DNA of 64,000 nt from Escherichia coli (GTDB lineage: Bacteria; Pseudomonadota; Gammaproteobacteria; Enterobacterales; Enterobacteriaceae): assembly GCF_003018255.1 (NCBI RefSeq), contig NZ_CP027440.1; one strand, given 5' to 3'. The position numbers and the translations under genes are program-made. Below, piece after piece: positions 3,189 through 63,621 of the stretch (the first letter of the stretch is position 1; every line of letters begins with the position of its first letter). The notes below the pieces were generated by a model. That model saw nothing but the letters and a program-made list of their open reading frames with translations, was not told the DNA's origin and did not search any database.

Positions 3189-3199
3189 CAAGCACTGCA

Positions 3200-3240
3200 A
3201 AAAAACAGCCGGACGGTTTTCACCTCCGGCTATTTTTTTA
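3200..3240. terminator. Bidirectional rho-independent terminator between amtB and tesB
   Basis: A-tract, hairpin AGCCGGAcggttttcacCTCCGGCT, then T-tract (tattttttt). Confidence 0.7.
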
Positions 3241-4098
3241 ATTATGATTACGCATTACCCCTTCCTGAACGGTCGAGGCAACCAGCACGCCATCCTGGGT
3301 ATAAAACTCACCGCGCACAAAGCCGCGAGCGCTGGACGCCGAGGTGCTCTCCACGCTATACAGCAGCCATTCATTCAAATTAAACGGGCGATGGAACCAC
3401 ATGGAATGGTCAATGGTGGCAATCTGAATCCCCGGTTCGAGAAAACCGATGCCGTGCGGCTGTAAAGCTACCGGCAGGAAATTAAGATCAGAAGCGTAAC
3501 CGAGCAGATACTGATGAACGCGCAGATCATCCGGCACGTTACCATTTGCGCGGATCCACACCTGACGATGCGGTTCTGCGACGTGCCCTTTCAGTGGGTT
3601 ATGAAACTCCACCGGACGGACTTCAAGCGGACGATCGCAGATGAATTTATCTTTCAGCACTGGCGGCAGCAGGTGCGCCAGCGATTGGGCGATTTGCGTT
3701 TCCGAAGGCAGGCCATCAGGCGCTGGCGCGGACGGCATTGTTTTTTGATGTTCGAAACCCGCTTCTGGTGCCTGGAAAGAGGCAGTCATATAAAAAATCG
3801 GTTTGCCGTTTTGAATAGCAGCAACCCGGCGGGCGCTGAAGCTGTTACCGTCACGCAGCGTTTCGACATCATAAATAATCGGCTTCTTACTATCGCCTGG
3901 GCGAAGAAAGTAGCTGTGAAACGAATGTACCAGCCGCTCTTCAGGGACGGTCTCTTTTGCAGCATACAAGGCCTGACCCACGACCTGGCCGCCAAACACC
4001 TGGCGTAAACCTAAATCTTCACTCTGGCCGCGAAAGAGTCCTTCCTCAATTTTTTCCAGATTTAACAATGTCAGTAAATTTTTTAGCGCCTGACTCAT
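3238..4098 (-). CDS. tesB: Acyl-CoA thioesterase II (TesB), 286 aa
   Basis: Internal Met of ORF 3238..4182 ([30 protein letters not shown]...) matches the TesB N-terminus. Confidence 0.92.
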
Positions 4099-4315
4099 AT
4101 AACTCTCCAGTAACAAAGCTGCCGCAGCAAGCCAAAGTGAGTTGAGTATAACGCAAATTTGCCACTGGTCCGATGGGTGCAATGGTCTGAATTACGGGCT
4201 AATTACAGGCAGAAATGCGTGATGTGTGCCACACTTGTTGACGTTACTATTTTGTTAACCACTCTTCCGGCGAGGAAAGTTAGCCCGCTGGTGCATTGAT
4301 AATAAGGAGAAGTGA

Positions 4316-4885
4316 ATGAAACTCGTGCACATGGCCAGTGGTTTAGCGGTTGCGATTGCGTTGGCGGCTTGCGCAGATAAAAGCGCGGATATTCAGACGC
4401 CAGCACCGGCTGCAAATACGTCTATTTCAGCAACACAACCTGCTATCCAGCAACCGAATGTCTCCGGTACCGTCTGGATCCGTCAGAAAGTCGCACTGCC
4501 GCCTGATGCTGTGCTGACCGTGACACTTTCTGACGCGTCGTTAGCCGATGCGCCGTCAAAAGTGCTGGCGCAGAAAGCGGTGCGTACCGAAGGTAAACAG
4601 TCACCATTCAGCTTTGTTCTGCCATTTAACCCGGCAGATGTTCAGCCGAACGCGCGTATTCTATTGAGTGCGGCGATTACCGTGAATGACAAACTGGTAT
4701 TTATTACCGATACCGTTCAGCCGGTGATCAATCAGGGCGGAACTAAAGCCGACCTGACATTGGTGCCGGTGCAGCAAACCGCCGTGCCGGTTCAGGCCAG
4801 CGGTGGCGCAACGGCTACCGTACCTTCGACTTCACCAACTCAGGTGAATCCGTCTTCGGCAGTTCCAGCTCCTACGCAATATTAA
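4316..4885 (+). CDS. ybaY: Lipoprotein YbaY
   Basis: Lipobox LAAC after the signal peptide; Pro/Ala-rich; conserved position between tesB and atl. Confidence 0.85.
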   Translation: MKLVHMASGLAVAIALAACADKSADIQTPAPAANTSISATQPAIQQPNVSGTVWIRQKVALPPDAVLTVTLSDASLADAPSKVLAQKAVRTEGKQSPFSFVLPFNPADVQPNARILLSAAITVNDKLVFITDTVQPVINQGGTKADLTLVPVQQTAVPVQASGGATATVPSTSPTQVNPSSAVPAPTQY

Positions 4886-5381: not shown

Positions 5382-5495
5382 GGGGGCTCTGTTGGTTCTC
5401 CCGCAACGCTACTCTGTTTACCAGGTCAGGTCCGGAAGGAAGCAGCCAAGGCAGATGACGCGTGTGCCGGGATGTAGCTGGCAGGGCCCCCACCC
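5382..5495 (+). ncRNA. ffs: 4.5S RNA (signal recognition particle RNA), 114 nt
   Basis: GGGGGCTCTGTTGGTTCTCCCGCAACGCTACTCTGTTTACCAGGTCAGGTCCGGAAGGAAGCAGCCAAGGCAGATGACGCGTGTGCCGGGATGTAGCTGGCAGGGCCCCCACCC matches E. coli 4.5S RNA, including the GGAA tetraloop of domain IV. Confidence 0.95.
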
Positions 5496-8852: not shown

Positions 8853-9024
8853 TACTGACCTCCGGTTGCTGAAAATGCGGCAACACAGTAAGACGAAAAG
8901 TCAGTGAAGAGAACGTTCCCATTACATCTGTGTGATGAAGATCACATAGGGTATGCCTTCATGGCGAAAGAATTATAAAACTCTTAATAAACAGCCGGTT
9001 ATAGCTCCGAAAGCGAGTTATTTA

Positions 9025-9243
9025 TTAGCGAATAAATTTCCATACTGAGGAAGGGATCTTGTCGTACAGTTTATTCATGGTCAATTCGGCGAGGCGGTGA
9101 TCTGCGGCTGAGTAAAATACCGCCAGTTCATTATCTGATAATTCGTATTTATTTTTCTCGATAACACGCTCCAGCGTGTCAATTGTCTGGCAACGACGTA
9201 AACGCATTAAATAATCGGTTTTTGTTAAAGGTTTTTCGGACAT
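9025..9243 (-). CDS. hha: Haemolysin expression modulator Hha (72 aa)
   Basis: Internal Met of ORF 9025..9489: [72 protein letters not shown]. Confidence 0.95.
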
Positions 9244-9268
9244 ACTTCTACCCATGGTTGTAATAATT

Positions 9269-9643
9269 CTAACAAGATAAACTCGCAGGATTCTCTTTCG
9301 TCGCATTGACAAAACAACGGAATAGTCGATTACCTGACTTCCGCCATTTCTGAAGATCCTGCATATTAATACCATAACTACTGAACAACATAAAGGTGTC
9401 ATCCAGATATTCGTCGATCTGCTCAATGAGCTTATTGTCTTCATTATACTTAATTTTGTAATTAAGTGCGAAGGTCGCAATATGCTCAATCAGTTCATTC
9501 AACTGGAGGTTGATCGCCGAGGTTGGGTCGTTAACCCAGCCATGATTGCTTTCTTCAAGGTTTGCAAGACAGTCATGATACAGGGTTTCACAGAGAAACT
9601 TAAGCTGCGCGATATCATGTCTTTTGGGTGAGTATTCATCCAT
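9269..9643 (-). CDS. tomB: Hha toxicity modulator TomB (YbaJ), 124 aa
   Basis: Full [27 protein letters not shown]..., immediately upstream of hha on the same strand. Confidence 0.93.
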
Positions 9644-10144
9644 AACGCGTCCCCTTCTTAGCGGTTGAACTAACGGACACCTTTCGGGATGGAAAAAACT
9701 TACTGACCTGGACTTGCCCTCTCGTTTGTTAGCTTAACTATAAGCCACTCTTTGCAGGTTTTCATCGCATTATTACGAAAAATTACAATTAGGAAGGAAG
9801 CGGGACAGGACTCACTTTTTCATACTAGCACTAACCCGCAGCAGGTAAAAGCAGTTTGCTCGAACTGTTCATAACATTTCAGGATTATCGCCAGATGAAA
9901 TTGGTAACACTAATACCAGGATTGCTCTGAATATGACGTAATAACCGAGGAATGAATAAAGAATTACCGTAAATAATTAAGAATAGCCTCTAAATGATTA
10001 TGGATTATTAAATCTATTAGCGCTACTTAATATAAATTAACTAACAATCAGTATTTTTTATGAATTTTATACGTGTTTAATACTGGTTTTCGTATGAGAT
10101 CCTGAGTTGGTGGTTCAATGACTCCTTAATGTTCGTCGGTTATG

Positions 10145-21026: not shown

Positions 21027-22958
21027 ATGAGTTATCAGGTCTTAGCCCGAAAATGGCGCCCACAAACCTTTGCTGACGTCGTCGGCCAGGAACATGTGCT
21101 GACCGCACTGGCGAACGGCTTGTCGTTAGGGCGTATTCATCATGCTTATCTTTTTTCCGGCACCCGTGGCGTCGGAAAAACCTCTATCGCCCGACTGCTG
21201 GCGAAGGGGCTAAACTGCGAAACCGGCATTACCGCGACGCCGTGCGGCGTGTGCGATAACTGTCGTGAAATCGAGCAGGGGCGCTTTGTCGATCTGATTG
21301 AAATCGACGCCGCCTCGCGCACTAAAGTTGAAGACACTCGCGACCTGCTGGATAACGTCCAGTACGCTCCGGCGCGTGGTCGTTTCAAAGTTTATCTCAT
21401 CGACGAAGTGCATATGCTGTCGCGTCACAGCTTTAACGCACTGTTAAAAACCCTTGAAGAGCCGCCAGAGCACGTTAAGTTTTTGCTGGCGACGACCGAT
21501 CCGCAGAAATTGCCGGTGACGATTTTGTCACGCTGTCTGCAATTTCATCTCAAGGCGCTGGATGTCGAGCAAATTCGCCATCAGCTTGAGCACATCCTCA
21601 ACGAAGAACATATCGCTCACGAGCCGCGGGCGCTGCAATTGTTGGCACGCGCCGCTGAAGGCAGCCTGCGAGATGCCTTAAGTCTGACCGACCAGGCGAT
21701 TGCCAGCGGTGACGGCCAGGTTTCAACCCAGGCGGTCAGTGCGATGCTGGGTACGCTTGACGACGATCAGGCGTTATCGCTGGTTGAAGCGATGGTCGAG
21801 GCCAACGGCGAGCGCGTAATGGCGCTGATTAATGAAGCTGCTGCCCGTGGTATCGAGTGGGAAGCGTTGCTGGTGGAAATGCTCGGTCTGTTGCATCGTA
21901 TTGCGATGGTACAACTTTCGCCTGCTGCTCTTGGCAACGACATGGCCGCCATTGAGCTGCGGATGCGTGAACTGGCGCGCACCATACCGCCGACGGATAT
22001 TCAGCTTTACTATCAGACGCTGTTGATTGGTCGCAAAGAATTACCGTATGCGCCAGACCGCCGTATGGGTGTTGAGATGACGCTGCTGCGCGCGCTGGCG
22101 TTCCATCCGCGTATGCCGCTGCCTGAGCCAGAAGTGCCACGCCAGTCCTTTGCGCCCGTCGCGCCAACGGCAGTAATGACGCCAACACAGGTGCCGCCGC
22201 AACCGCAATCAGCGCCGCAGCAGGCACCGACTGTACCGCTCCCGGAAACCACCAGCCAGGTGCTGGCGGCGCGCCAGCAGTTGCAGCGCGTGCAGGGAGC
22301 AACCAAAGCAAAAAAGAGTGAACCGGCAGCCGCTACCCGCGCGCGGCCGGTGAATAACGCTGCGCTGGAAAGACTGGCTTCGGTCACCGATCGTGTTCAG
22401 GCGCGCCCGGTGCCATCGGCGCTGGAAAAAGCGCCAGCTAAAAAAGAAGCGTATCGCTGGAAGGCGACCACTCCAGTGATGCAGCAAAAAGAAGTGGTCG
22501 CCACGCCGAAGGCGCTGAAAAAAGCGCTGGAACATGAAAAAACGCCGGAACTGGCGGCGAAGCTGGCGGCAGAAGCCATTGAGCGCGACCCGTGGGCGGC
22601 TCAGGTGAGTCAACTTTCGCTACCAAAACTGGTCGAACAGGTGGCGTTAAATGCCTGGAAAGAGGAGAACGGCAACACGGTGTGTCTGCATTTGCGCTCC
22701 TCTCAGCGTCATCTGAATAACAGTGGCGCACAGCAAAAACTGGCTGAAGCGTTGAGCACGTTAAAAGGTTCAACGGTTGAACTGACTATCGTTGAAGATG
22801 ATAATCCCGCGGTGCGTACGCCGCTGGAATGGCGTCAGGCGATATACGAAGAAAAACTTGCGCAGGCGCGCGAGTCCATTATTGCGGATAATAATATTCA
22901 GACCCTGCGTCGGTTCTTCGATGCGGAGCTGGATGAAGAAAGTATCCGCCCCATTTGA
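21027..22958 (+). CDS. dnaX: DNA polymerase III subunits tau/gamma (643 aa tau)
   Basis: AAA+ Walker A GTRGVGKTS; full length 643 aa. Confidence 0.97.
   Translation: MSYQVLARKWRPQTFADVVGQEHVLTALANGLSLGRIHHAYLFSGTRGVGKTSIARLLAKGLNCETGITATPCGVCDNCREIEQGRFVDLIEIDAASRTKVEDTRDLLDNVQYAPARGRFKVYLIDEVHMLSRHSFNALLKTLEEPPEHVKFLLATTDPQKLPVTILSRCLQFHLKALDVEQIRHQLEHILNEEHIAHEPRALQLLARAAEGSLRDALSLTDQAIASGDGQVSTQAVSAMLGTLDDDQALSLVEAMVEANGERVMALINEAAARGIEWEALLVEMLGLLHRIAMVQLSPAALGNDMAAIELRMRELARTIPPTDIQLYYQTLLIGRKELPYAPDRRMGVEMTLLRALAFHPRMPLPEPEVPRQSFAPVAPTAVMTPTQVPPQPQSAPQQAPTVPLPETTSQVLAARQQLQRVQGATKAKKSEPAAATRARPVNNAALERLASVTDRVQARPVPSALEKAPAKKEAYRWKATTPVMQQKEVVATPKALKKALEHEKTPELAAKLAAEAIERDPWAAQVSQLSLPKLVEQVALNAWKEENGNTVCLHLRSSQRHLNNSGAQQKLAEALSTLKGSTVELTIVEDDNPAVRTPLEWRQAIYEEKLAQARESIIADNNIQTLRRFFDAELDEESIRPI
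22309..22351 (+). other. dnaX programmed -1 ribosomal frameshift signal (A AAA AAG slippery heptamer plus downstream stem-loop) that produces the gamma subunit
   Basis: AAAAAAG at 22309-22315; in the -1 frame GAG TGA follows immediately; GC-rich hairpin CCGGCAGCCGCTACCCGCGCGCGGCCGG lies downstream. Confidence 0.9.
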
Positions 22959-35985: not shown

Positions 35986-36069
35986 ACACCGTCGCTTAAA
36001 GTGACGGCATAATAATAAAAATATGAAATTCCTCTTTGACGGGCCAATAGCGATATTGGCCATTTTTTT
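35986..36069 (+). ncRNA. chiX: Hfq-dependent sRNA ChiX (MicM/SroB), about 84 nt, with intrinsic terminator
   Basis: ACACCGTCGCTTAAAGTGACGGCATAATAATAAAAATATGAAATTCCTCTTTGACGGGCCAATAGCGATATTGGCCATTTTTTT; terminal hairpin GGCCAATAgcgaTATTGGCC plus T7; located in the ybaK-ybaP intergenic region. Confidence 0.9.
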
Positions 36070-36862
36070 AGCGCAACATCTGCGGCAAATTCCCTTCTCC
36101 ATACAGGTGTAGTGCACCGACCGCGACCACATATCGCCCCGGCGGCATGGCGCGTAATTTGTCCCGCCAGGCGAGATTTCGCTGATGCATCAGCACATCG
36201 TACAGCGACTGACTGAACGTATTAGGCAGCGTTATTTCATTATTTTGTGGCGGTGTATTCAGCCACCAGCTCATCATTTGTTGCAGCAACCGTGCGTTGG
36301 TGTGCCAGTGGGTCAGCGTATCGTCCAGCAGCGCCAGTCCGTTGTCAGGGAGCTGGAGCAACATGGCAATCTGGTTTTCTGCCCCTTCCAGTTCAATCAC
36401 GGGTTTATGTTGTTGCTTCGCCGCCTGCAATAGCTGGTAATCGATACCGTATTCTGCCCGCAGCCCCAGTTTTTGTGCCTGCGTCGCCTGAAGAACCATC
36501 GCGATTTGCCACAGCGGTTGAGTAGAAAAGAGCGACGGAGAAATGCCCATCTCCTGGCTAATATGCTGCAGATTTTGGAGTTGCTCCTCGCTAATGCGCT
36601 CTTCCAGCGTCTCGCAGGCAGGCAAATTAGCAAAAGGCGTATCGCTGGTGGAAACATCCGCCTCGACGATCAGCGCATCGGCGTTTTTGAGCTTTTTGAG
36701 CAAACGGGTGGGCAGGGGAGCCATATCGTGGCTACCCATATGAATACTGCCAATCAGATGAAAATGGCGATTGCCGGGAAGAGAGATATCGATAGCAGGC
36801 CAGGTGTAATGATTACCGCGCAGCGCGGCCCAAAGCGTTTTTACCCGGTACAACAGATCCAT
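36068..36862 (-). CDS. ybaP: TraB/GumN family protein YbaP (264 aa)
   Basis: Full ORF. Confidence 0.88.
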   Translation of the reverse strand: MDLLYRVKTLWAALRGNHYTWPAIDISLPGNRHFHLIGSIHMGSHDMAPLPTRLLKKLKNADALIVEADVSTSDTPFANLPACETLEERISEEQLQNLQHISQEMGISPSLFSTQPLWQIAMVLQATQAQKLGLRAEYGIDYQLLQAAKQQHKPVIELEGAENQIAMLLQLPDNGLALLDDTLTHWHTNARLLQQMMSWWLNTPPQNNEITLPNTFSQSLYDVLMHQRNLAWRDKLRAMPPGRYVVAVGALHLYGEGNLPQMLR

Positions 36863-36994
36863 ACGACCTCCCTTTGTGAAATATCATGCTAGCGCGCGGG
36901 GAGGGATGGCGCAAATGGAGTTGATTGTTGCACTTGCGCACAGTGCTTGTGTGCATTACAATGATTAAATAATGGACAAGGAGATGAGAGAGGA

Positions 36995-37297
36995 ATGGCT
37001 CAAAAGAAAAATATAAGGAGTTTTCGTGATGCCTGGTTGGCTGATTTTTTTGTCCATTCAACGCCACATCGAAAGATCCCTGCTGAAATCCATACCACGT
37101 TATCACGAAAGTTGGACATCATTAATGCTGCCACTTCTCATCGGGATTTACGCTCCCCTCCGGGGAACCGATACGAAGAGTTATCCGGGAAATTACAGGA
37201 ATACTCCTCCATTAGAGTGAATAAACAGTACCGACTGATTTTTAAATGGGTTAATGGCAAGGCCGAAGAATTGTTTTTAGACCCACACAACTACTAA
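36995..37297 (+). CDS. Putative type II toxin, HigB / plasmid-maintenance-killer (RelE/ParE superfamily) family, 100 aa
   Basis: ORF with SD GAGAGAGG 5 nt upstream. The protein follows the Proteus HigB pattern closely: IRSFRD.WLADFF / LSRKLDIINAATSHRDL / GNRYEELSGKLQEYSSIRVNKQYRLIFKWVNGKAEELFLDPHNY versus IKSFKHKGLKLLFE / INDRLQAIDTATEIGEL / GDREGYWSITVRANWRITFQFINGDAYILNYEDYH. It sits 35 nt upstream of the HigA-like ybaQ on the same strand. Confidence 0.7.
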   Translation: MAQKKNIRSFRDAWLADFFVHSTPHRKIPAEIHTTLSRKLDIINAATSHRDLRSPPGNRYEELSGKLQEYSSIRVNKQYRLIFKWVNGKAEELFLDPHNY

Positions 37298-37332
37298 AAC
37301 ATAGCTGTCGTATTGACGAGAAAGGTAAAACT

Positions 37333-37674
37333 ATGAAACAGGCAACAAGAAAACCGACGACACCCGGAGATATTCTTCTCTATGAATATCTGGAACCGCT
37401 CGATTTGAAAATCAATGAGTTAGCAGAGTTGCTGCATGTTCATCGTAATAGCGTCAGTGCACTGATCAATAACAATCGTAAACTCACCACTGAGATGGCA
37501 TTCCGTCTGGCGAAAGTTTTTGATACCACAGTCGATTTTTGGCTAAACCTCCAGGCGGCAGTTGATCTTTGGGAAGTTGAAAACAACATGCGTACCCAGG
37601 AAGAATTGGGACGGATTGAAACAGTGGCTGAATATTTGGCACGCCGTGAAGAGCGTGCAAAAAAGGTCGCGTAG
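37333..37674 (+). CDS. ybaQ: HigA/VapI-family HTH (XRE) antitoxin-like regulator YbaQ (113 aa)
   Basis: HTH NELAELLHVHRNSVSALINNNRKLTTEMAFRLAKVFDTTVDFWLNLQ is typical of HigA antidotes. Confidence 0.88.
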   Translation: MKQATRKPTTPGDILLYEYLEPLDLKINELAELLHVHRNSVSALINNNRKLTTEMAFRLAKVFDTTVDFWLNLQAAVDLWEVENNMRTQEELGRIETVAEYLARREERAKKVA

Positions 37675-37731
37675 AATAATTTCCCTATAACGGATGCGCC
37701 ACCCTAAAGCAGTGCATCCGCAATGATGTAC

Positions 37732-40236
37732 TTATTCCTTCGGTTTAAACCGCAGCAACCGGTTGGCGTTACTCACTACGGTAATCGACGAGAGCGCCAT
37801 TGCCGCTCCGGCGACCACCGGGTTAAGCAGCGTACCGGTGAACGGCCACAAAATACCGGCGGCGACCGGAATACCAATGCTGTTGTAGATAAACGCACCG
37901 AGCAGGTTCTGCTTCATGTTGCGCAGCGTTGCGCGGGAAATTGCGAGCGCATCCGCAACACCCATCAGGCTATGGCGCATCAGGGTAATCGCCGCGGTTT
38001 CAATGGCAACATCACTGCCGCCACCCATCGCAATACCGACATCCGCCTGAGCCAGCGCTGGCGCATCGTTAATGCCGTCGCCCACCATTGCTACCTGACG
38101 TCCTTCACTTTGCAGACGTTTGATCGCTTCGGCTTTACCGTCTGGCAGCACGCCGGCTATCACCTCATCAATCCCTGCTTCTTTAGCGATCGCATTGGCG
38201 GTGGTCGGGTTATCCCCGGTTAGCATCACCAGGCGATATCCCGCTTTATGCAGGCGTTGCAGCGCCGCCACGCTATCACTACGCAACGGATCGCGTACAG
38301 CCAGCAGGGCTACCGCTTTCCCGTCAACCGCCAGCAGCACAGGCGTTGCCCCTTGCGATGCCTGAGCTGAAATATCTGCTTCAATTGCTTTGGTATCGAC
38401 CTGTTGGTCATTTAACAGCGCCTGATTACCCAGCAATACCGCATGACCTTCAGCTTCACCGCTCACACCCAGCCCGCGCAATGTGCGGAAACCGTTGACC
38501 TGCGGCAGCTGCATATCACCTGCTTTATCGAGGATCGCCCGTGCCAGCGGGTGGCTGGAACCTTGCTCCAGCGCCGCCGCCAGACGCAGCGCCTGCGCTT
38601 CATCAACATCAGCAAATGTTTTTACTGCGACAACCTGCGGCTTCCCTTCGGTCAGCGTCCCGGTTTTATCGAACACCACGGTGTCGAGCGTACTGGCGCG
38701 TTGCAGCGCGTCGGCGTCCCGCACCAGCACGCCAAACTCAGCCGCCCGCCCGACGCCCGAAATAATCGACATCGGCGTCGCCAGTCCCAGCGCACACGGA
38801 CAGGCGATAATCAGCACCGTGGTGGCAATCACCAGGGTATAAACAATTTGCGGTGCCGGGCCAAAGAAATACCAGATTGCCGCACTGACCAGCGCAATGA
38901 CTACCACCACCGGCACAAACACAGCGGAGATTTTATCCGCCAGTTGACCGATTTCTGGCTTGCTGCTCTGGGCCTGTCGCACCATGCGAATGATCCGTGA
39001 CAGCGTAGTATGGCTGCCGACCGCACTGGCGCGAAACAGCACACTGCCGTCCTGTACCACTGTCCCGGCATGGACGCTATCGCCTTCGCCTTTTTGCTGC
39101 GGGATTGGTTCGCCCGTCAGCATCGCTTCATCCAGCCACGCTTCGCCCTGGGTAATTTCACCATCTACCGGCACCCGATCACCCGTCGTCAGGCGCAGCA
39201 ACATACCTGGCTGAACATCTGCCAGCGGCACGTTTTTTTCACCTTCGTTGGTGACCAGGCGCGCCGTCGGTGGGGTTAAATCGAGTAATTTCTCCAGCGC
39301 CTTAGAAGAACGCTGACGTGCGCGCGCTTCCAGCATATGACCGAGATTAATCAGACCGATAATCATCGCACTGGCTTCATAGTAAAGATGTCGCGCTTCC
39401 ATCGGGAACCACTGCGGCCACAGGTTGACGCTCATTGAATAGAGCCACGCCACGCCCGTACCCAGCGCCACCAGCGTATCCATCGTCGCTGCACCGTTCA
39501 GCAGGCTTTTCCATGCGCTGCGGTAAAAATGGCCGCCGGCGAAAACCATTACCGCCAGGGTTATCAGGCCGATAACCAACCACAGGCTGCGGTTGTCGGC
39601 GGTGACCATCATGTTATCGCCGATCATCCCCCAGACCATCACCGGGATACCCACCGCCAGTGCGACAATCGCCTGCCAGCGGAAGCGCTTCATCGTAGCG
39701 ACGGCGGTTTCTTGCTGGCGCTCGCGGCGTTTAGCGTCATCTTCAATCGCTTCCGCGCCGTAGCCCGCTTTTTCCACCGCCTGCACTAAATCTTGTGGGG
39801 AGGCACTGCCCATCACCAGCGCAGTACGCTCCGCCAGGTTTACCCGTGCCTGAGTGACGCCCGGTACGCTTTGCAACGCATTTTGTACGCGGGTGACACA
39901 GCTGGCGCAGCTCATGCCGCTCAGCAGCAACTGCTGGCTGTCATCGTCATCGGCGGTCGCTGCCGGAAGCGCCTCAGAAACCGCTGTCAGTGCTTCCGAC
40001 GGGATTGATGACTCCGCCAGCGGTTTAGCCTTTGGGTGGCTTACAGATGCGTCATAACCCGCTTGTTTGATGGTTTCGATCAGCTGTTCTGCACTGGCAG
40101 TCCCGGTAACGTGCGCTTCAGTGACAGACACATCCGCCTGCTCAACATCCGGGCGCTGTTCGAGACTTTCTTTCACGCGTTTAACGCAGTGACCGCAGGA
40201 CAGGCCGTCCAGGGTCAGGTCGATAGTTTGTGACAT
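37732..40236 (-). CDS. copA: Cu(I)-translocating P1B-type ATPase CopA (834 aa)
   Basis: Two N-terminal GMSCASC/GLSCGHC metal-binding domains, CPC motif, DKTGT phosphorylation site. Confidence 0.97.
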
Positions 40237-55049: not shown

Positions 55050-55062
55050 TGAGAGTAAATAA

Positions 55063-55096
55063 GGGGCGTTCTGGTTGAATGGAACGCCTTGTTTAA
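55063..55096 (+). terminator. Rho-independent terminator after ybbP
   Basis: GGGGCGTTCtggttgaatgGAACGCCTT followed by GTTT. Confidence 0.7.
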
Positions 55097-55477
55097 ATTA
55101 ATTCTACAATATGTTTCATTGATGATGTTATTGAATTGGTGATTTCCTATCTTTCTATTGCTGATATTAATCTGAATCGGTGGAGTTTAATGATTTTAAA
55201 TATAGCCCTACAAAAATAACTCAGACTAATAAAATCATAAATCATATGCGTTGAATGGATATTATCCATATAGTGAATTTGTTGATAATGAATTCATCTG
55301 TGCTAAAAATGTTAGTTTAATAAAATATTGAAAGTGACCTGTAATAACAGTTGTTGTTGATTGAGAACAAATAAGTTTATGTGAAAAATATATAAATACA
55401 TTAGCTGGTCTTGTGTGTCATTTTATTTTTTTGTTGCTAACACAGGGATATGAACAATAACTAAAAGGGCACTTTAT

Positions 55478-56932
55478 ATGAGCGGAAAACCAGCGGCGCG
55501 TCAGGGAGATATGACTCAGTATGGCGGTCCCATTGTCCAGGGTTCGGCAGGTGTAAGAATTGGCGCGCCCACCGGCGTGGCGTGCTCGGTGTGTCCGGGC
55601 GGGATGACCTCGGGCAACCCGGTAAATCCGCTGCTGGGGGCGAAGGTGCTGCCCGGCGAGACGGACCTTGCGCTGCCCGGCCCGCTGCCGTTCATTCTCT
55701 CCCGCACCTACAGCAGCTACCGGACGAAGACGCCTGCGCCGGTGGGGATTTTTGGCCCCGGCTGGAAAGCGCCTTCTGATATCCGCTTACAGATACGCGA
55801 TGATGTACTGGTACTCAACGACAACGGCGGACGGAGCATTCACTTTGAGCCGCTGCTGCCGGGTGAGGCGGTGTACAGCCGCAGCGAGTCCCTGTGGCTG
55901 GTGCGTGGCGGTAAGGCAACGCAGCCGGACGGCCACACGCTGGCACGGCTGTGGGCGTCGCTGCCGCCGGATATCCGGTTAAGCCCGCATCTTTACCTGG
56001 CGACCAGCAGCGCACAGGGGCCGTGGTGGATACTGGGGTGGTCTGAGCGGGTGCCGGGTGCTGAGGACGTACTGCCAGCGCCGCTGCCGCCGTACCGGAT
56101 GCTTACCGGGCTGGCGGACCGCTTCGGGCAGACGCTGACGTACCGGCGTGAGGCCGCCGGTGACCTGGCCGGGGAAATCACCGGCGTGACGGACGGTGCC
56201 GGGCGGGAGTTCCGTCTGGTGCTGACCACGCAGGCGCAGCGGGCGGAAGAGGCCCGTAAACAGCACACCGCTTCCTTATTTTCCCCTGACACCCCCCGCC
56301 CTCTTTCAGACTCTGCGTTCCCCGACACACTGCCCGGTACGGAATACGGCCCCGACAGGGGCATCCGTCTTTCGGCGGTGTGGCTGATGCACGACCCGGC
56401 ATACCCGGAAAGCCTGCCCGGTGCGCCACTGGCGCGGTACACGTATACGGAAGCCGGTGAACTGCTGGCGGTATATGACCGCAGCAATACGCAGGTGCGC
56501 GCTTTCACGTATGACGCGCAGCACCCGGGCCGGATGGTGGGGCACCGTTATGCGGGAAGGCCGGAGATGCGCTACCGCTACGACGATGCGGGGCGGGTGG
56601 TGGAGCAGCTGAACCCGACAGGCCTGAGTTACCGCTACCAGTATGAGCAGGACCGCATCACCATCACGGACAGCCTGAACCGGCGAGAGGTGCTGCATAC
56701 AGAAGGCGGGGCCGGGCTGAAGCGGGTGGTGAAAAAAGAACTGGCGGACGGCAGCGTCACGCACAGCGGGTATGACGCGGCAGGAAGGCTCACGGCACAG
56801 ACGGACGCGGCGGGACGGCGGACAGAGTACGGCCTGAATGTGGTGTCCGGCGATATCACGGATATCACCACGCCGGACGGGCGGGAGACGAAATTTTACT
56901 ATAACGACGGGAACCAGTTAACGGCGGTGGTG
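55478..56932 (+). pseudogene. rhsD: rhs core gene, N-terminal 485 codons (RhsD-like), interrupted by an IS
   Basis: MSGKPAARQGDMTQYGGPIVQGSAGVRIGAPTG PAAR-like start, YD repeats. The reading frame runs into the IS terminal repeat (…NQLTAVV|[12 protein letters not shown]). Confidence 0.85.
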
Positions 56933-56967
56933 TCCTTGACCCACGATATTCAGACAGTCGTTGTATC

Positions 56968-57849
56968 TTAAGTTGACGTTACCCGCTGACGTCGATATTC
57001 CCTTGGTGAGAGATAACCTAACGCACTATGCGGATGGGTTTCATTGTAATGCTCGATCGCCACTGCAAGGTTATGCAATGCCGTTCTTACATTCGGTTTC
57101 GGCATGAACGCGATGTAGTCTTCTTTCATCGTTTTCACGAACCTTTCTGCCATTCCATTGCTCTGAGGGCTACTGACTGCCGTTGTGCAGGGCTCCAGAT
57201 TCAACTCTCTGGCGAACTGCCGTGTTTCATGAGCTGTATAAGCCGAACCGTTATCAGTCAGCCACTGGATTGGCCGTTCCGCTCCTTTATCGCCAAAGCG
57301 TTTTTCTATTGCTCCTAACATGACATCCTGCACCGTTGCTTTGTCATAACCTCCCGTGCTTGCGGCCCAGTCTATGGCTTCACGATCGCAACAGTCCAGT
57401 GCGAACGTGACACGCAGTTTTGCGCCATCATCACAACCGAACTCAAAGCCATCGGAACACCAGCGCTGGTCGCTTTCCTTCACCGATATTCGGCCTTTAT
57501 GTTCCCGCTGCGGCCGTGAAGGTTTGTCATGTAACAACAACAGGTTATTTTCGCTCATTATCCGATAAACGCGCTTTGCATTCACGAACGGCACTCCTTT
57601 GTTACGGGACTGTCGTCTGAGAATGGCCCAGACACGACGATAGCCATATGTCGGCATATCGCTGATGATATCAAGGATACGTGCTAACACTTCCGCATCC
57701 GCAGCCTCATCACATCTGCGACGACGTTTATTCGGCTTATTACCAGATGTTTTCATCCGTTGTGCCAGTTGCGCACGCGACACGCCCAGAATACGGCTTA
57801 CCAGGGTTATTCCTTGTCCGTTGGCAACAAGGGCGCATGCGCTATCCAT
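56968..57849 (-). CDS. IS transposase OrfB (DDE integrase domain), likely expressed as an OrfAB fusion by -1 frameshift
   Basis: 293-aa ORF, similar to IS2 InsD (…[10 protein letters not shown]…DCCDRE…WLTDNGS…HPHSALGY…). Confidence 0.85.
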
Positions 57850-58199
57850 TTTCGCGACTGACCATACTCCACCGCTTCTTTGAGGATCTCAACTTCCATG
57901 GTTTTCTTACCCAGCAAGCGCTGTAACTCTTTTATTTGTTTTATAGCGGCAGCCAGTTCTGAGGCAGGAACGACATCCTCTCCGGCAGCAACAGCAGTGA
58001 GACTTCCTTCCAGATATTGTTTTTTCCACTTAAACAACAGGCTGGGCTGAATACCATGCAAACGCGCCACATGGGACACCGTCATACCGGGTTCCATTGT
58101 CTGCTGAATAATGGCGATTTTTTCCTGAGGAGTTTTACGTTTACGAAGCTCCTGCCCCAGCAAAATTCCAGTCATCTCAAAATTAGCACTAGTAGACAT
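57807..58199 (-). CDS. IS transposase OrfA (HTH), IS2 InsC-like
   Basis: …[78 protein letters not shown]… Start taken at the internal Met, because the first Met of the ORF would lie inside the terminal IR. Confidence 0.75.
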
Positions 58200-58263
58200 A
58201 TATCCAAGCCTATCTCTTATTTTAAGATACATCCACTGTCTGGCGTTTCAAGGGGCCGGTTCA

Positions 58264-61038
58264 CAGTTAACGGCGGTGGTGTACCCGGACGGGCTGGAGA
58301 GCAGCCGGGCATATGATGAGCTGGACAGACTGGTATCGGAGACATCGCGCAGCGGGGAGACAGTACGCTACCGCTACGATGACGTGCACAGTGAGTTACC
58401 GGCGACGACAACGGATGCGACGGGCAGCACCCGGCAGATGACCTGGAGCCGCTACGGGCAGTTGCTGGCCTTCACCGACTGCTCGGGCTACCAGACCCGC
58501 TATGAATACGACCACTTTGGTCAGATGACGGCGGTCCATCGTGAGGAAGGCATCAGCACGTACAATACCTATAACCCGCGCGGCCAGCTGGTCAGCCGGA
58601 AAGACGCACAGGGCCGTGAAACGCGGTATGAATACAACGCCGCAGGCGACCTGACTGCCGTTATCACCCCGGACGGCAACCGGAGCGAGACACAGTACGA
58701 TGCGTGGGGAAAGGCGGTCAGCACCACGCAGGGCGGGCTGACGCGCAGTATGGAGTACGATGCTGCCGGACGTGTCATCAGCCTGACCAACGAGAACGGC
58801 AGTCACAGCGACTTCAGCTACGATACGCTTGACCGGCTGGTACAGCAGCGCGGCTTTGACGGGCGGACGCAACGTTATCATTATGACCTGACCGGAAAAC
58901 TCACGCAGAGTGAAGATGAGGGGCTTGTCATCCTCTGGTACTACGATGAATCGGACCGTATCACTCACCGCACGGTGAACGGCGAACCGGCAGAGCAGTG
59001 GCAGTATGATGGCCACGGCTGGCTGAGAGAAATCAGCCACCTGAGCGAAGGCCACCGTGTTGCCGTCCACTATGGCTACGACGATAAGGGCCGTCTGACC
59101 GGGGAGCGCCAGACGGTGGAGAACCCGGAGACGGGGGAACTGCTGTGGCAGCATGAGACGAAACAGGCATACAACGAACAGGGGCTGGCAAACCGCGTCA
59201 CGCCGGACAGCCTGCCGCCGGTGGAGTGGCTGGCCTATGGCAGCGGTTATCTGGCGGGCATGAAGCTGGGCGGGACGCCGCTGCTGGAGTACACGCGCGA
59301 CCGCCTGCACCGGGAGACGGTGCGCAGCTTCGGCAGCATGGCAGGCAATACAGCCGCATATGAACTGACCAGCACTTACACCCCCGCAGGCCAGTTACAG
59401 AGCCGGCACCTGAACAGCCTGGTGTTTGATTGTGACTATAACTGGAATGACAACGGCGACCTGATGCGCATCAGCGGCCCGCGACAGACGCGGGAATACG
59501 GCTACAGCGCCACGGGCAGGCTGGAGAGCGTGCGCACCCTCGCACCGGACCTGGACATCCGCATCCCGTATGCCACCGACCCGGCGGGCAACCGGCTGCC
59601 GGACCCGGAGCTGCACCCGGACAGTACACTCACAGTGTGGCCGGATAACCGAATCACCGAAGACGCGCACTACCTGTACCGTTACGATGAATACGGCAGG
59701 CTGGCGGAGAAGACGGACCGCATCCCGGCGGGTGTGATACGGACGGACGACGAGCGGACCCACCACTACCACTACGACAGCCAGCACCGCCTGGTGTTCT
59801 ATACGCGGATACAGCATGGCGAGCCACTGGTCGAGAGCCGCTACCTTTACGACCCGCTGGGCCGCCGGACGGGTAAACGGGTGTGGCGTCGCGGGCGTGA
59901 CCTGACAGGATGGATGTCGCTGTCGCGTAAACCGGAGGAGACGTGGTACGGGTGGGACGGCGACAGGCTGACGACGGTGCAGACTGACAGCACGCGTATC
60001 CAGACGGTGTACCAGCCGGGAAGCTTCACACCGCTCATCCGCATCGAAACAGACGTGACCGAACTGGAGAAAGCGCAGCGGCGGAGCCTGGCGGAGAAGC
60101 TCCAGCAGGAAGGGAGCGAGGACGGACACGGCGTGGTGTTCCCGGCTGAACTGGTGCGGCTGCTGGACAGGCTGGAGGAAGAAATCCGGACAGACCGCGT
60201 GAGCAGTGAAAGCCGGGCGTGGCTTGCGCAGTGCGGGCTGACGGTGGAGCAACTGGAAAAACAGGTGGAGCCGGAATATACACCGGCGCGAAAAGTTCAT
60301 CTTTACCACTGCGACCACCGGGGCCTGCCGCTGGCGCTTATCAGCGAAGACGGCAATACGGTGTGGAGCGCGGAGTATGATGAATGGGGAAACCTGCTTA
60401 ATGAGGAGAACCCGCATCATGTGTATCAGTCATACCGTCTGCCGGGGCAGCAGCATGATGAGGAGTCGGGGCTGTACTACAACCGGAACCGGTACTACAA
60501 TCCGTTGCTGGGACGATATATTACTCAGGACCCGATTGGGCTGGCGGGGGGATGGAGTCTGTATGCGTATCCGCTGAATCCGGTGAATGGTATTGATCCA
60601 TTAGGATTAAGTCCTGCAGATGTAGCGTTAATGCGAAAAAAAGAACAATTAAACCATCAAAGAGCATGGGATATATTATCTGATACTTATGATGATATGA
60701 AGAGATTAAATTTAGGTGGGACTGATCAATTTTTCCATTGTATGGCATTTTGTCGAGTGTCTAAATTAAATGACGCTGGTGTTAGCCGATCAGCGAAAGG
60801 GCTGGGTTATGAAAAAGAGATTAGAGATTACGGGTTAAATATGTTCGGTATGTACGGCAGAAAAGTAAAGTTATCCCATTCTGAGATGATTGAAGATAAT
60901 AAAAAAGACTTGGCTGTAAATGAACATGGGTTGACATGTCCATTAACACAAGATTGCTCAAATAGATGTATTGATTATATTAATCCAGAGCATAAAAAAA
61001 CGATAAAGGCTTTACAAGATGCTGGCTATCTCAAGTAA
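58264..61038 (+). CDS. rhs core gene continuation (YD repeats, RHS core, PxxxxDPxGL) plus variable C-terminal toxin domain; separated from its 5' part by the IS
   Basis: The frame resumes exactly: QLTAVV|[18 protein letters not shown]… DPIGLAGG demarcation motif at aa about 755 of this ORF, followed by an about 165-aa AT-rich C-terminal tip. Confidence 0.85.
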
Positions 61039-61510
61039 CATCTCAAAGATGGTAATATTTATTTTTGCTATTATAATCGTTGTTTTTTTATGCGTGACTA
61101 CTTATCTTTATTTACACAAAGATGAATCTCTTGTAAGTAAGCATTACATAAACTATATGGCAATACCAGAAAGTGATGGGGTTTTTACATGGCTCCCAGA
61201 TTTTTTTCCGCACGTAGCGGTGGATATATCAATATCCACAAATGTAGAAGATGATTATTTTTTTTCTTATTTTTCCCTAACAATCGATGATGGGGGGAGG
61301 TTTAAGAAAACATTGACTGTGAGGGCCAGGGAACAAGTGGCGAAAATCGTATCAGAGAATGATCCAGATACAAAAAAAGTGTGGTGTAAATATGGTAAAA
61401 TACCAGGGCAAGGGGATAGCGTAAACCTTTTTTTTGTTGGTGAAATTAATGTTACGCATTATTTTATAACAAATATTGGAGCTGGGTTACCTGATGCTTG
61501 TGCAGAGTAA
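61019..61510 (+). CDS. Putative Rhs immunity protein (163 aa, N-terminal TM helix), AT-rich
   Basis: ORF overlaps the rhs stop; an alternative start is at 61049. Hydrophobic segment [22 protein letters not shown]. Its position immediately 3' of the Rhs C-terminal tip is canonical for rhsI. Confidence 0.6.
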
Positions 61511-61876
61511 TTGCTTGAATTAAGAGTCTATCCCATATCGAAGTCGTCAACTTCGTAGTGAGGAAAAGTATAATCCCTGACTGAGAAAAGACATGTCGGC
61601 TATTGTGTAAAGCCATATAGCTCAGACGATGAATATCTACTCGTATTCAGTTGTTTATTGAGGGTGAGTTCCGACCCTGAAACAACAAATAAAATGAACA
61701 GCCAGAGAGTTTACATAGAATTGCACTGGTCTTTTACGATATCTGACATTGTGTAATACATATTCAGCCATGCATTAATTAAAATGTTACGTGTTTAATG
61801 TGAGTCCCTATCTGAAAATAAATAATCCTTCCGGATTAAAATAAATTCTCGCCGGGAAAGAAAGAGGAAATAAACC

Positions 61877-62010
61877 ATTAGCGGAAAACCAGCGGCACGC
61901 CAGGGTGACATGCCCCAGTACGGCGGCCCGATAGTCCAGGGTTCAGCGGGGGTACTGATAGTCGCGCCGACTGCATCGAGAACTCCATACAACTTTTTAC
62001 GGAACGTCAC
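61877..62010 (+). pseudogene. Orphan rhs 5' remnant (codons 2 to about 35 of an rhs gene, no start codon)
   Basis: SGKPAARQGDMPQYGGPIVQGSAGV is 80-90% nucleotide identity to positions 55481-55570 of the rhs start, then diverges and stops. Confidence 0.6.
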
Positions 62011-62024
62011 CTGATAAAATTTGT

Positions 62025-62432
62025 TCAGTATCGTCTTTTGAGATTCTCAAGGTTATGGAGTAACCAGACAGAACGGACACCACTGTCGGAGATAAAAACC
62101 CCCTGTTTACGCAGCTCGTTGCTGGCCCGGTGCTGACCATGTGTCGGGAAAGCGACGGCGTAATCAACAACAGCCTGTTCAATTGCCTCATCGGTACGGT
62201 TCTTAAGGTTAGGAGCGCGGCGACTACGATTAATCTGCGCATCCACACCGCCTTCAGCGGCCAGTTCGCGGTAACGATAAAACGTATCACGCGAAACGCC
62301 CATGATTTTACAGGCTTTTGATACGTTGCTGAGTTCTTCAGCCAGATTGAGCAAACCGGCTTTGTGTTTGATGACGGGATTGGCAGTATGAAGCATGAGA
62401 GTTACCTCTTGTTTTGGATAAGGATTCGACAC
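62025..62432 (-). pseudogene. ylbG: IS481-like transposase N-terminal HTH fragment (YlbG-like), truncated
   Basis: 135-aa ORF with HTH CKIMGVSRDTFYRYRELAAEGG and no integrase core downstream. Confidence 0.6.
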
Positions 62433-62511
62433 TCATATCAAAACCGGTAACTCTCAACCTTTCAAGGCCATGTGTCAGATCAAGTCGCGACTAATACAAA
62501 TACGTCCCTCA

Positions 62512-63621
<1,110 letters not shown>

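What the first reader, a model, noticed from the sequence alone, without database searches (positions are those of the whole stretch)
36995..37674. Toxin-first HigB/HigA-like type II TA module: an unlisted 100-aa RelE/HigB-family ORF directly upstream of ybaQ
ybaQ is usually treated as a stand-alone HTH regulator. Here a well-formed ORF (SD plus ATG) 35 nt upstream on the same strand shows the HigB (plasmid maintenance killer) signature, including the C-terminal ...IRVNKQYRLIFKWVNGKAEELFLDPHNY block, and YbaQ has the HigA/VapI HTH. The toxin-before-antitoxin order is the hallmark of HigBA loci. If the toxin is intact this is a chromosomal mRNA-interferase module sitting between ybaP and copA.
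Basis: partly seen in the sequence, partly recalled or inferred. Interest (0 to 1): 0.6.

Follow-up and report, generated by a model that had tools for sequence, protein, structure and literature searches.

The report
HigB-like toxin with YbaQ antitoxin
This is a real, intact toxin-antitoxin gene pair (a HigB-type toxin followed by its antidote YbaQ) that about a quarter of E. coli strains carry and K-12 lacks, but public genome annotation already lists it and a 2020 study tested it, so it is not new.

Summary
A 100-codon ORF at 36995..37297 (+) lies 35 nt upstream of ybaQ (37333..37674). It is a full-length HigB-like toxin (Pfam PF05015, E 2.7e-32). YbaQ is an equivalog-level HigA antitoxin (TIGR02607, E 1.1e-30). 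The toxin-first HigBA reading is supported.

It is not new. RefSeq annotates the pair in all 1265 of 5426 complete E. coli genomes that carry the toxin. Rousset et al. (bioRxiv 10.1101/2020.05.25.114553) named the toxin higB-1. They showed that ybaQ is essential only in B2/F strains with an intact higB-1, and that ybaQ knock-down derepresses it in strain S88. The S88 toxin differs from this one by a single residue.

What I add:
- A promoter-operator (GCAC-N4-GCAC-N-GTGC-N4-GTGC, 36930..36954) conserved in all 18 toxin-bearing loci of ten or more genera, and absent from solitary ybaQ loci.
- Strong purifying selection on both genes.
- A clade-specific C-terminal D-P-H-x-Y motif in place of the canonical D-Y-H.
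- A published ClpXP degron at the YbaQ C-terminus.
- In K-12 the toxin and operator are replaced by 79 unrelated nt, not left as a degraded copy.
- A paralogue with 80% identity on D6-like phage-plasmids.

RNase activity itself is inferred, not shown.

The parts
36930..36954 (.). Putative YbaQ operator. Four half-sites, GCAC-N4-GCAC-N1-GTGC-N4-GTGC, which read as two overlapping GCAC-N9-GTGC inverted repeats offset by 8 bp. It covers the -35 element and the spacer.
   Evidence: It is the only match in the 64-kb window even with 2 mismatches allowed, against 0.04 expected. The half-sites are nearly invariant in all 18 toxin-bearing loci from ten or more genera, while the flanks are not conserved. 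The motif is absent upstream of solitary ybaQ. It is also present on the D6-like phage-plasmid. Rousset et al. report a YbaQ binding motif in this promoter. Binding was not tested here.
36934..36939 (+). Putative -35 hexamer TTGCGC of the higB-ybaQ promoter
   Evidence: The TTG is invariant in the 18-locus alignment and lies 17 nt from the -10 element. With only 3 of 6 matches to consensus it was not reported by the generic scan. Inferred.
36957..36962 (+). Putative -10 hexamer TACAAT
   Evidence: The T, A and final T (TAnnnT) are invariant or nearly so across the 18 loci, at a fixed distance from the operator. Inferred; no transcription start data.
36995..37297 (+). HigB-like (GraT/HigB clade, RelE superfamily) toxin gene, 100 aa, intact. 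It is the 'higB-1' of Rousset et al. and RefSeq protein WP_000057523.1.
   Evidence: PF05015, E 2.7e-32. A profile of 18 orthologues matches GraT (6f8s_B) at E 3.6e-27 and P. vulgaris HigB (4mct_B) at E 6.8e-11, both end to end. PGAP annotates it as a toxin. dN/dS is 0.05 against E. ruysiae. It differs by one residue (R50 here, W50 there) from the experimentally tested S88 allele.
37298..37332 (+). 35-nt spacer carrying the ybaQ ribosome-binding site (AAGG at 37322..37325, 7 nt before the ATG). No terminator or consensus promoter was detected in it.
   Evidence: Sequence read. The scan found no terminator-like or promoter-like site between the genes.
37333..37674 (+). ybaQ, a HigA-family antitoxin and Xre-type HTH repressor, 113 aa
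   Evidence: TIGR02607 equivalog, E 1.1e-30. HTH_3, E 3e-11. Identical to PDB 2eby. Same RefSeq protein (WP_000806442.1) in strains with and without the toxin.
37654..37671 (+). C-terminal RAKKVA of YbaQ, a ClpXP recognition signal (C-motif 2) that would make the antitoxin labile
   Evidence: Listed as a ClpXP C-motif-2 substrate tag (PMC9775585). Used as a portable degradation tag (PMC2907309; PMC6195910). A C-terminal ...K/N-x-V/A-A is kept in YbaQ homologues of other genera.

Best explanation
This is a functional chromosomal type II toxin-antitoxin operon of the HigBA type, in the GraTA-like branch. A single promoter (TTGCGC-17-TACAAT) drives the toxin gene first and ybaQ second. The 100-aa toxin has the RelE/HigB fold family. 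It most likely arrests growth by cleaving mRNA on the ribosome, which is inferred from its family. YbaQ dimers neutralise it by direct binding. By analogy with GraA this would block ribosome access rather than occlude the active site. YbaQ also represses the operon by binding the four GCAC/GTGC half-sites that overlap the -35 element and the spacer. YbaQ carries a ClpXP degron, so it must be made continuously. When its synthesis stops, the toxin is both freed and derepressed, which is why ybaQ is essential only in strains with an intact toxin. Shown in the literature: the conditional essentiality of ybaQ and the derepression of higB-1 on ybaQ knock-down. Shown here: family membership, integrity of the ORF, purifying selection, and the conserved promoter-operator. 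Inferred: RNase chemistry, mode of neutralisation, stoichiometry at the operator, and in vivo instability of YbaQ within this module.
For: Family membership rests.

In 20 of the 21 loci outside the ybaP-copA site, a YbaQ homologue (42-83% identical) has a toxin homologue or its remnant immediately upstream, in unrelated genomic contexts. The two genes therefore travel as a pair.

Both genes are under purifying selection. Toxin dN/dS against E. ruysiae is 0.05. Between genera dN is 0.11-0.33 while dS is saturated.

The operator and promoter are conserved in 18 of 18 toxin-bearing loci and missing from solitary ybaQ loci.

For experimental support, ybaQ is essential by CRISPRi in the B2/F strains that carry higB-1, except CFT073 where the toxin is truncated. 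ybaQ knock-down strongly overexpresses higB-1 in S88 (bioRxiv 10.1101/2020.05.25.114553). The S88 toxin differs from this one at 1 of 100 residues, and its promoter at 1 of 132 nt. The YbaQ C-terminus is a ClpXP degron.
Against: No biochemical assay of this toxin appears in the 24 library papers that mention ybaQ or in the 4 that combine higB-1, Escherichia coli and phylogroup. The canonical C-terminal D-Y-H active-site motif of P. vulgaris HigB and GraT is not present as such. This clade has a conserved D-P-H-x-Y, and both MAFFT and HMMER align it out of register with D-Y-H. The equivalent of HigB His54 is Glu, as in GraT. The toxin's ribosome-binding site is poorly spaced. The toxin decays often: it is frameshifted in the Nissle 1917/ST73 lineage, has a stop codon or frameshift in two other genera, and is absent from about 77% of E. 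coli. The module is therefore dispensable.
Confidence: 0.88

Rival explanations
1. The pair is a TA module, but the toxin behaves like P. putida GraT rather than like canonical P. vulgaris HigB. Toxicity would be mild and condition-dependent (for example cold-dependent) and linked to ribosome biogenesis. The toxin's flexible N-terminus would make the toxin-antitoxin complex a derepressor rather than a co-repressor.
For: GraT is by far the closest solved relative: E 2.8e-15 with the single sequence and 3.6e-27 with the profile, against 0.022 and 6.8e-11 for P. vulgaris HigB. The same Glu replaces HigB His54. The operator has four half-sites, a central palindrome plus two distal sites, like the graTA operator that binds two GraA dimers on different faces of the DNA (PMC6393540).
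Against: ybaQ knock-down was lethal under standard growth conditions in B2/F strains, so toxicity is not weak at the temperatures used. The C-terminal motif differs from that of GraT. Nothing about the order or disorder of the N-terminus was tested here.
Confidence: 0.3
2. The toxin in this window is an inactive relic. YbaQ works mainly as a stand-alone transcription factor, as in K-12.
For: Most E. coli keep an identical YbaQ protein without any toxin. ChIP-exo in K-12 treated YbaQ as a transcription factor with sites elsewhere (PMC6237786). The catalytic motif is non-canonical.
Against: The ORF is full length with dN/dS 0.05. D-P-H-x-Y is conserved across genera, so it is not a lesion. ybaQ is essential only where the toxin is intact. 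This allele has the family-consensus Arg at the single position where it differs from the tested S88 toxin.
Confidence: 0.05
3. The biological role of the locus is defence or competition between mobile elements, not stress-induced growth arrest. It could act as abortive infection against phage. Alternatively, YbaQ could act as an anti-addiction factor against the closely related HigBA of D6-like phage-plasmids.
For: The closest mobile paralogue lies on phage D6 and on about 92 D6-like plasmid prophages. Its toxin is 80% identical and its antitoxin 75%. The HTH is almost identical and the four operator half-sites are the same. That module is regarded as a post-segregational killing system (PMC6799933). 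Solitary ybaQ is kept in about 66% of E. coli.
Against: PADLOC gives no hit for the toxin and only two non-significant hits (E about 0.003) for YbaQ. There are no co-occurrence or cross-neutralisation data. This reading concerns the role of the module, not its mechanism, and is compatible with the main explanation.
Confidence: 0.2
4. The ORF is a chance open reading frame in an intergenic region.
For: Many chance ORFs of 80-170 codons occur in the window.
Against: Pfam E 2.7e-32. Orthologues at 61-81% identity occur in ten or more genera.
Confidence: 0.01

Closest known systems
E. coli higB-1/ybaQ of phylogroups B2 and F (Rousset et al., bioRxiv 10.1101/2020.05.25.114553; RefSeq proteins WP_000057523.1 / WP_000057524.1 with WP_000806442.1)
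   Same: It is the same locus, between ybaP and copA. The antitoxin protein is identical, the toxin is 99-100% identical, and the promoter matches at 131 of 132 nt.
   Different: Nothing material. This window has R50 where S88 has W50.
Pseudomonas putida GraT/GraA (PDB 6f8s, 6f8h; PMC6393540)
   Same: GraT is the closest solved toxin and aligns end to end. GraA matches YbaQ at E 3e-10. Both loci are toxin-first. Both operators have four half-sites overlapping the promoter.
   Different: The half-site sequence differs (TAAC in graTA, GCAC here), as does the spacing. GraT ends in D-Y-H whereas this toxin ends in D-P-H-N-Y. YbaQ has a longer C-terminal tail carrying a ClpXP degron. No cold dependence is known for this module.
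Proteus vulgaris Rts1 HigB/HigA (PDB 4mct, 4mcx; ribosome complexes 4w4g, 4ypb)
   Same: Same Pfam family, same toxin-first order, and an Xre-HTH antitoxin. Arg73 is conserved as R80.
   Different: Sequence similarity is weak with the single sequence (E 0.022). His54 is replaced by Glu, Asn71 by Gln, and the D-Y-H C-terminus by D-P-H-x-Y. Rts1 HigBA is plasmid-borne.
higBA of Escherichia phage D6 and D6-like plasmid prophages (MF356679; pYU39_89 CP011430; PMC6799933)
   Same: The toxin is 80% identical and the antitoxin 75%. It has the same D-P-H-x-Y motif, the same operator half-sites and the same gene order.
   Different: It sits on a P1-like phage-plasmid, where it is regarded as a post-segregational killing system. 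The antitoxin tail ends KKAA rather than KKVA.
E. coli K-12 HigB/HigA (ygjN-ygjM)
   Same: It is also a toxin-first chromosomal HigBA module with an HTH antitoxin (established knowledge; PDB 2icp HigA matches YbaQ at E 3.3e-09).
   Different: It is a different locus. From my own knowledge, not tested here, its toxin belongs to a different Pfam family from PF05015. It did not appear among the PDB hits of this toxin.

Membership tests
HigBA type II toxin-antitoxin systems (PF05015 HigB-like branch) | The toxin belongs to the HigB-like / RelE-superfamily sequence family | tested here: met
   PF05015 at 111.6 bits against a cut-off of 27, E 2.7e-32, with full-length profile coverage. The orthologue profile matches GraT at 3.6e-27 and HigB at 6.8e-11. 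The ParE_like and RelE_StbE models score below their cut-offs.
HigBA type II toxin-antitoxin systems (PF05015 HigB-like branch) | The antitoxin is a HigA-type Xre/HTH_3 protein | tested here: met
   TIGR02607 antidote_HigA (equivalog) at 105.3 bits against a cut-off of 47.7. HTH_3, E 3e-11. PDB relatives include VapI and the HigA/GraA antitoxins.
HigBA type II toxin-antitoxin systems (PF05015 HigB-like branch) | Reverse gene order: toxin upstream of antitoxin, in one operon | tested here: met
   The toxin is at 36995..37297 and the antitoxin at 37333..37674, on the same strand with a 35-nt gap. No terminator lies between them. The same order is seen in every related locus that has a toxin homologue.
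HigBA type II toxin-antitoxin systems (PF05015 HigB-like branch) | Conserved active-site residues of HigB (P. vulgaris His54, Arg73, Asp90-Tyr91-His92) | tested here: inconclusive
   Arg73 is kept as R80. His54 is Glu61, as in GraT. The C-terminus reads D96-P97-H98-N99-Y100 instead of D-Y-H, and it aligns out of register with D-Y-H. The variant motif is conserved across genera, so it is probably functional, but equivalence was not shown.
HigBA type II toxin-antitoxin systems (PF05015 HigB-like branch) | The toxin is growth-inhibitory and is neutralised by the cognate antitoxin | not testable with these tools
   Literature only. ybaQ is essential in B2/F strains with intact higB-1 but not in CFT073, where the toxin is truncated.
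HigBA type II toxin-antitoxin systems (PF05015 HigB-like branch) | The antitoxin autoregulates the operon through an operator in the promoter | tested here: met
   A palindromic four-half-site element overlaps the -35 element and the spacer. It is conserved in 18 of 18 toxin-bearing loci and absent from solitary ybaQ loci. Rousset et al. saw derepression of higB-1 on ybaQ knock-down. This is comparative evidence; direct binding was not tested.
HigBA type II toxin-antitoxin systems (PF05015 HigB-like branch) | The antitoxin is proteolytically labile | not testable with these tools
   The C-terminal RAKKVA is present in the sequence. The literature lists it as a ClpXP C-motif-2 degron and uses it as a degradation tag. 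The half-life of YbaQ in this module is not known.
HigBA type II toxin-antitoxin systems (PF05015 HigB-like branch) | Ribosome-dependent cleavage of mRNA | not testable with these tools
   No assay for this protein appeared in the library papers returned by the ybaQ and higB-1 searches. Inferred from P. vulgaris HigB and GraT.
Known anti-phage defence systems (PADLOC) | Match to a defence-system protein model | tested here: not met
   There is no hit for the toxin. YbaQ gives only two non-significant hits, with E about 0.003.

The most novel reading that the evidence does not exclude
The solitary ybaQ kept by about two thirds of E. coli, and the YbaQ of this module, may act as a chromosomal anti-addiction or immunity factor against the closely related HigBA killing module of D6-like P1-type phage-plasmids. 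The D6-type toxin is 80% identical, the HTH is nearly identical, and the four operator half-sites are the same. YbaQ could therefore both neutralise the incoming toxin and repress its promoter, letting cells lose such plasmids without dying. A second and smaller point is that the conserved D-P-H-x-Y C-terminus may define a HigB subclade with a rearranged active site.
Probability: 0.2. Interest if true: 0.5.

Novelty: already known. Interest (0 to 1): 0.15.

Why it matters
The locus explains why a 'core' regulator gene, ybaQ, is essential in some E. coli lineages (B2/F, which include many extra-intestinal pathogens) and dispensable in K-12. That point has already been made in print. Three questions remain open. 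What does the toxin do biochemically, given its non-canonical C-terminus? Why is toxin-less ybaQ so strongly conserved? Does it cross-talk with the D6-type phage-plasmid module?

Tried and rejected
(1) I tested whether K-12 keeps a degraded copy of the toxin. Local alignment of the K-12-specific 79 nt upstream of ybaQ against the whole promoter-toxin-spacer region scored no better than shuffled sequence: score 15 against a shuffle mean of 16.2, with 384 of 500 shuffles at least as good. It is therefore a replacement or an old deletion, not a recognisable pseudogene.

(2) The generic sigma-70 scan did not report the promoter, because the -35 element matches consensus at only 3 of 6 positions. 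The promoter assignment rests on cross-genus conservation instead.

(3) I looked for an internal promoter for ybaQ inside the toxin gene or the spacer. None reached consensus level.

(4) The stem-loop after ybaQ (37691..37720) is weak, with z -1.55 and no T-run. I do not claim it as a terminator.

(5) dN/dS between genera could not be computed because synonymous sites are saturated.

(6) I did not run the large protein-database searches, structure prediction or fold search. Family membership was already unambiguous, and the tools would not give residue-level active-site geometry.

(7) The YbaQ motif from the K-12 ChIP-exo study is shown only in a supplementary figure that is not held as text. 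I could not compare it with my operator.

Full report
**1. What is in the sequence**

The window is E. coli chromosome running from mdlB to allW. It is 99.3% identical over 55 kb to strain 104.

At the finding's coordinates there is an ATG-started ORF at 36995..37297 (+) of 100 aa. ybaQ follows at 37333..37674 (+) after a 35-nt gap. The pair lies between the divergent ybaP (36068..36862, -) and the convergent copA (37732..40236, -).

ORFs of this size are common by chance in the window. The case therefore rests on homology, not on ORF length.

**2. Identity of the two proteins**

- **Toxin.** The 100-aa protein matches Pfam PF05015 (HigB-like toxin) over the whole profile at 111.6 bits, E 2.7e-32. 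The ParE-like and RelE/StbE models fall below their cut-offs.
- **Toxin, solved relatives.** The closest solved structure is P. putida GraT (6f8s_B, E 2.8e-15), followed by P. vulgaris HigB (E 0.022). With a profile of 18 orthologues these improve to 3.6e-27 and 6.8e-11, both end to end.
- **Antitoxin.** YbaQ reaches the equivalog model TIGR02607 'HigA family addiction module antitoxin' (105 bits, E 1.1e-30) and HTH_3. It is identical to PDB 2eby. It is related to VapI, P. aeruginosa and other HigA proteins, and GraA.

**3. It is already annotated and published**

RefSeq/PGAP calls the pair 'type II toxin-antitoxin system RelE/ParE family toxin' plus 'ybaQ: HigA family addiction module antitoxin'.

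Across the 5426 complete E. coli genomes:

| Genotype | Genomes | Share |
|---|---|---|
| Toxin gene present (always one chromosomal copy) | 1265 | 23% |
| ybaQ present | 4833 | 89% |
| ybaQ without toxin | about 3568 | 66% |
| Neither gene | about 593 | 11% |

Rousset et al. (bioRxiv 10.1101/2020.05.25.114553) describe exactly this locus.
- The exception is CFT073, where higB-1 is truncated.
- The higB-1 promoter contains the YbaQ motif.
- ybaQ knock-down strongly overexpresses higB-1 in S88.
- higB-1 is absent from most phylogroups, including K-12, and both genes were lost in phylogroup D.

I fetched the S88 locus. Its toxin differs from the window's at one residue (W50 there, R50 here, and R is the family consensus). 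Its promoter matches at 131 of 132 nt, and YbaQ is the same RefSeq protein.

As early as 2007, RASTA-Bacteria flagged K-12 YbaQ as a solitary antitoxin (PMC2374986).

**4.

In K-12-type strains, ybaQ is preceded by 137 nt of intergenic DNA. The first 58 nt are shared with the window. The remaining 79 nt show no significant similarity to the window's promoter, toxin gene or spacer. The toxin and its operator are therefore missing rather than visibly degraded.

Other alleles also exist:
- Both genes deleted, leaving the last 25 nt of ybaQ (RM14516).
- An unrelated 428-bp filler between ybaP and copA (KKa019).
- A frameshifted toxin in Nissle 1917, caused by loss of one T from the T7 run at 37044..37050. 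Seven of 60 evenly spaced rows have this 302-nt allele, so roughly a tenth of carriers do.

**5. Evidence from other genomes that the pair is a unit**

A scan of one genome per species with YbaQ gave 30 loci.
- Only Escherichia has the gene between ybaP and copA. E. ruysiae has the full pair there.
- In Trabulsiella, Citrobacter, Enterobacter, Mixta, Kluyvera, Pantoea, Sodalis, Erwinia, E. albertii and three distant MAGs, the homologue sits elsewhere.
- In 20 of those 21 loci it is immediately preceded by a toxin homologue or its remnant. The enterobacterial homologues are 61-81% identical, and the gap to the antitoxin is 19-90 nt in all but one locus.
- Some of these toxins are decaying: a stop codon in C. 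portucalensis, a frameshift in Enterobacter Bisph1, and an N-terminal truncation in Escherichia sp. ESNIH1.
- Between genera, dN is 0.11-0.33 while dS is saturated. Against E. ruysiae the toxin's dN/dS is 0.05.

**6. Promoter and operator**

Upstream regions of the 18 toxin-bearing loci share no similarity except one block, TGCACTTGnGCACnGTGCannnGTGCrnTAnnnT.

In the window this block gives:
- a -35 element, TTGCGC (36934..36939);
- a 17-nt spacer;
- a -10 element, TACAAT (36957..36962), whose invariant TAnnnT positions are the conserved ones;
- four half-sites, GCAC-N4-GCAC-N-GTGC-N4-GTGC (36930..36954).

The four-half-site pattern is unique in the window, against 0.04 matches expected by chance. 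It is absent upstream of every solitary ybaQ examined.

It can be read as two GCAC-N9-GTGC inverted repeats offset by 8 bp. This is reminiscent of the graTA operator, where two GraA dimers bind a central palindrome plus two distal half-sites on different faces of the DNA (PMC6393540). That two YbaQ dimers bind in this way is my inference.

**7. Antitoxin lability**

YbaQ ends in RAKKVA (37654..37671). The literature lists this as a ClpXP C-motif-2 recognition signal and uses it as a portable degradation tag. Homologues in other genera keep a C-terminal K/N-x-V/A-A.

**8. What is not canonical**

P. vulgaris HigB and GraT end in D-Y-H. The active site is described as a cleft around His92 (the HigB residue numbering is from my own knowledge of the HigB literature).

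The YbaQ-linked enterobacterial clade instead ends in a conserved L-D-P-H-x-Y, sometimes followed by 1-4 more residues. MAFFT and HMMER both align it one position out of register with D-Y-H.

Arg73 is kept as R80. His54 is Glu, as in GraT, and Asn71 is Gln.

The genetics show the toxin is active. Its chemistry may nevertheless differ in detail, and no biochemical study turned up in the library papers returned by the ybaQ and higB-1 searches.

**9. Relatives on mobile elements**

The toxin has homologues on 2133 plasmids, most below 60% identity. The closest group (80-81% identical, about 92 plasmids of Salmonella, E. coli and Citrobacter, the top-listed ones 75-95 kb) consists of D6-like plasmid prophages, plus phage D6 itself.

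There, higBA is regarded as a post-segregational killing system alongside phd-doc (PMC6799933). The D6-type antitoxin is 75% identical to YbaQ, with an almost identical HTH. Its operator has the same four half-sites.

This makes cross-talk with chromosomal YbaQ plausible (the anti-addiction idea). Nothing here tests it.

**10. Verdict**

The mechanism is that of a HigBA/GraTA-type type II TA operon, with repression by YbaQ and conditional essentiality of ybaQ.

The finding is ordinary in the sense that it is already annotated and experimentally described. Interest is low. The residual open points are the variant C-terminal motif, the strong conservation of toxin-less ybaQ, and the possible interplay with D6-like phage-plasmids.

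Noticed in passing
window 55052..62517: An Rhs element (RhsD position, between ybbP and mnmH) whose core ORF is split into 55478..56971 and 58276..61038. The split is caused by an IS3-family insertion sequence on the minus strand (orfA 57807..58232, orfB 56968..57849). Strain 104, otherwise 99.3% identical, has only about 0.7 kb there, with an annotated dinQ-like type I toxin. No complete E. coli genome covers more than 83% of this stretch in one place.
   Followed up: partly
window 37333..37674 versus L007 (E. ruysiae) 4001..4342: ybaQ is 98.8% identical at nucleotide level between E. coli and E. ruysiae. The flanking genes are much more diverged: ybaP 93.6%, the toxin gene 93.7%, copA 91.8%. 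Toxin dS is 0.29 against 0.04 for ybaQ. This points either to recent introgression of ybaQ or to an unusual constraint on its DNA or RNA.
   Followed up: partly
window 37044..37050: A T7 homopolymer inside the toxin gene. Loss of one T here is the inactivating frameshift of the Nissle 1917 allele, and 7 of 60 evenly sampled carrier genomes have the same 302-nt allele.
   Followed up: yes
L002 (K-12-like) 2980..3294 versus window 37675..37731: K-12-type strains carry about 260 bp of tandem REP/BIME-like repeats between ybaQ and copA. These are absent from the window, where the gap is 57 nt. KKa019 (L004) instead has a 428-bp GC-rich palindromic filler replacing both genes.
   Followed up: no
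window 37026..37220 (+): A 64-codon ORF in another frame inside the toxin gene. It is preceded by a near-perfect Shine-Dalgarno sequence (AAGGAG at 37011..37016) and starts at GTG. It is probably chance and was not examined further.
   Followed up: no
window 35986..36069, 22291..22355, 5390..5486: Three Rfam matches at gathering score: the sRNA sroB just downstream of ybaP, the dnaX frameshift element, and the SRP RNA ffs. All are expected for this region.
   Followed up: no
window about 9000..9650 (the tomB-hha position in strain 104; L038 27220..27838): By synteny with strain 104, a second toxin-antitoxin-like pair, tomB-hha, lies in the same window. A YadA-family autotransporter island absent from K-12 also sits between cueR and ybbJ. 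The window coordinates were not checked individually.
   Followed up: no
L020 (E. albertii) 3627..4315 and L021 (Escherichia sp. E1V33) 3627..4315: These second copies of the pair are 93-94% identical to the D6-type toxin and lie outside the ybaP-copA locus. They are therefore probably resident D6-like plasmid prophages. E1V33 additionally has a solitary chromosomal ybaQ (L016).
   Followed up: partly
window 37691..37720: A 9-bp GC-rich stem-loop (GGAUGCGCC...GCAGUGCAUCC region) lies between the convergent ybaQ and copA genes. It has no T-run and z -1.55, so it is at best a weak bidirectional terminator.
   Followed up: partly
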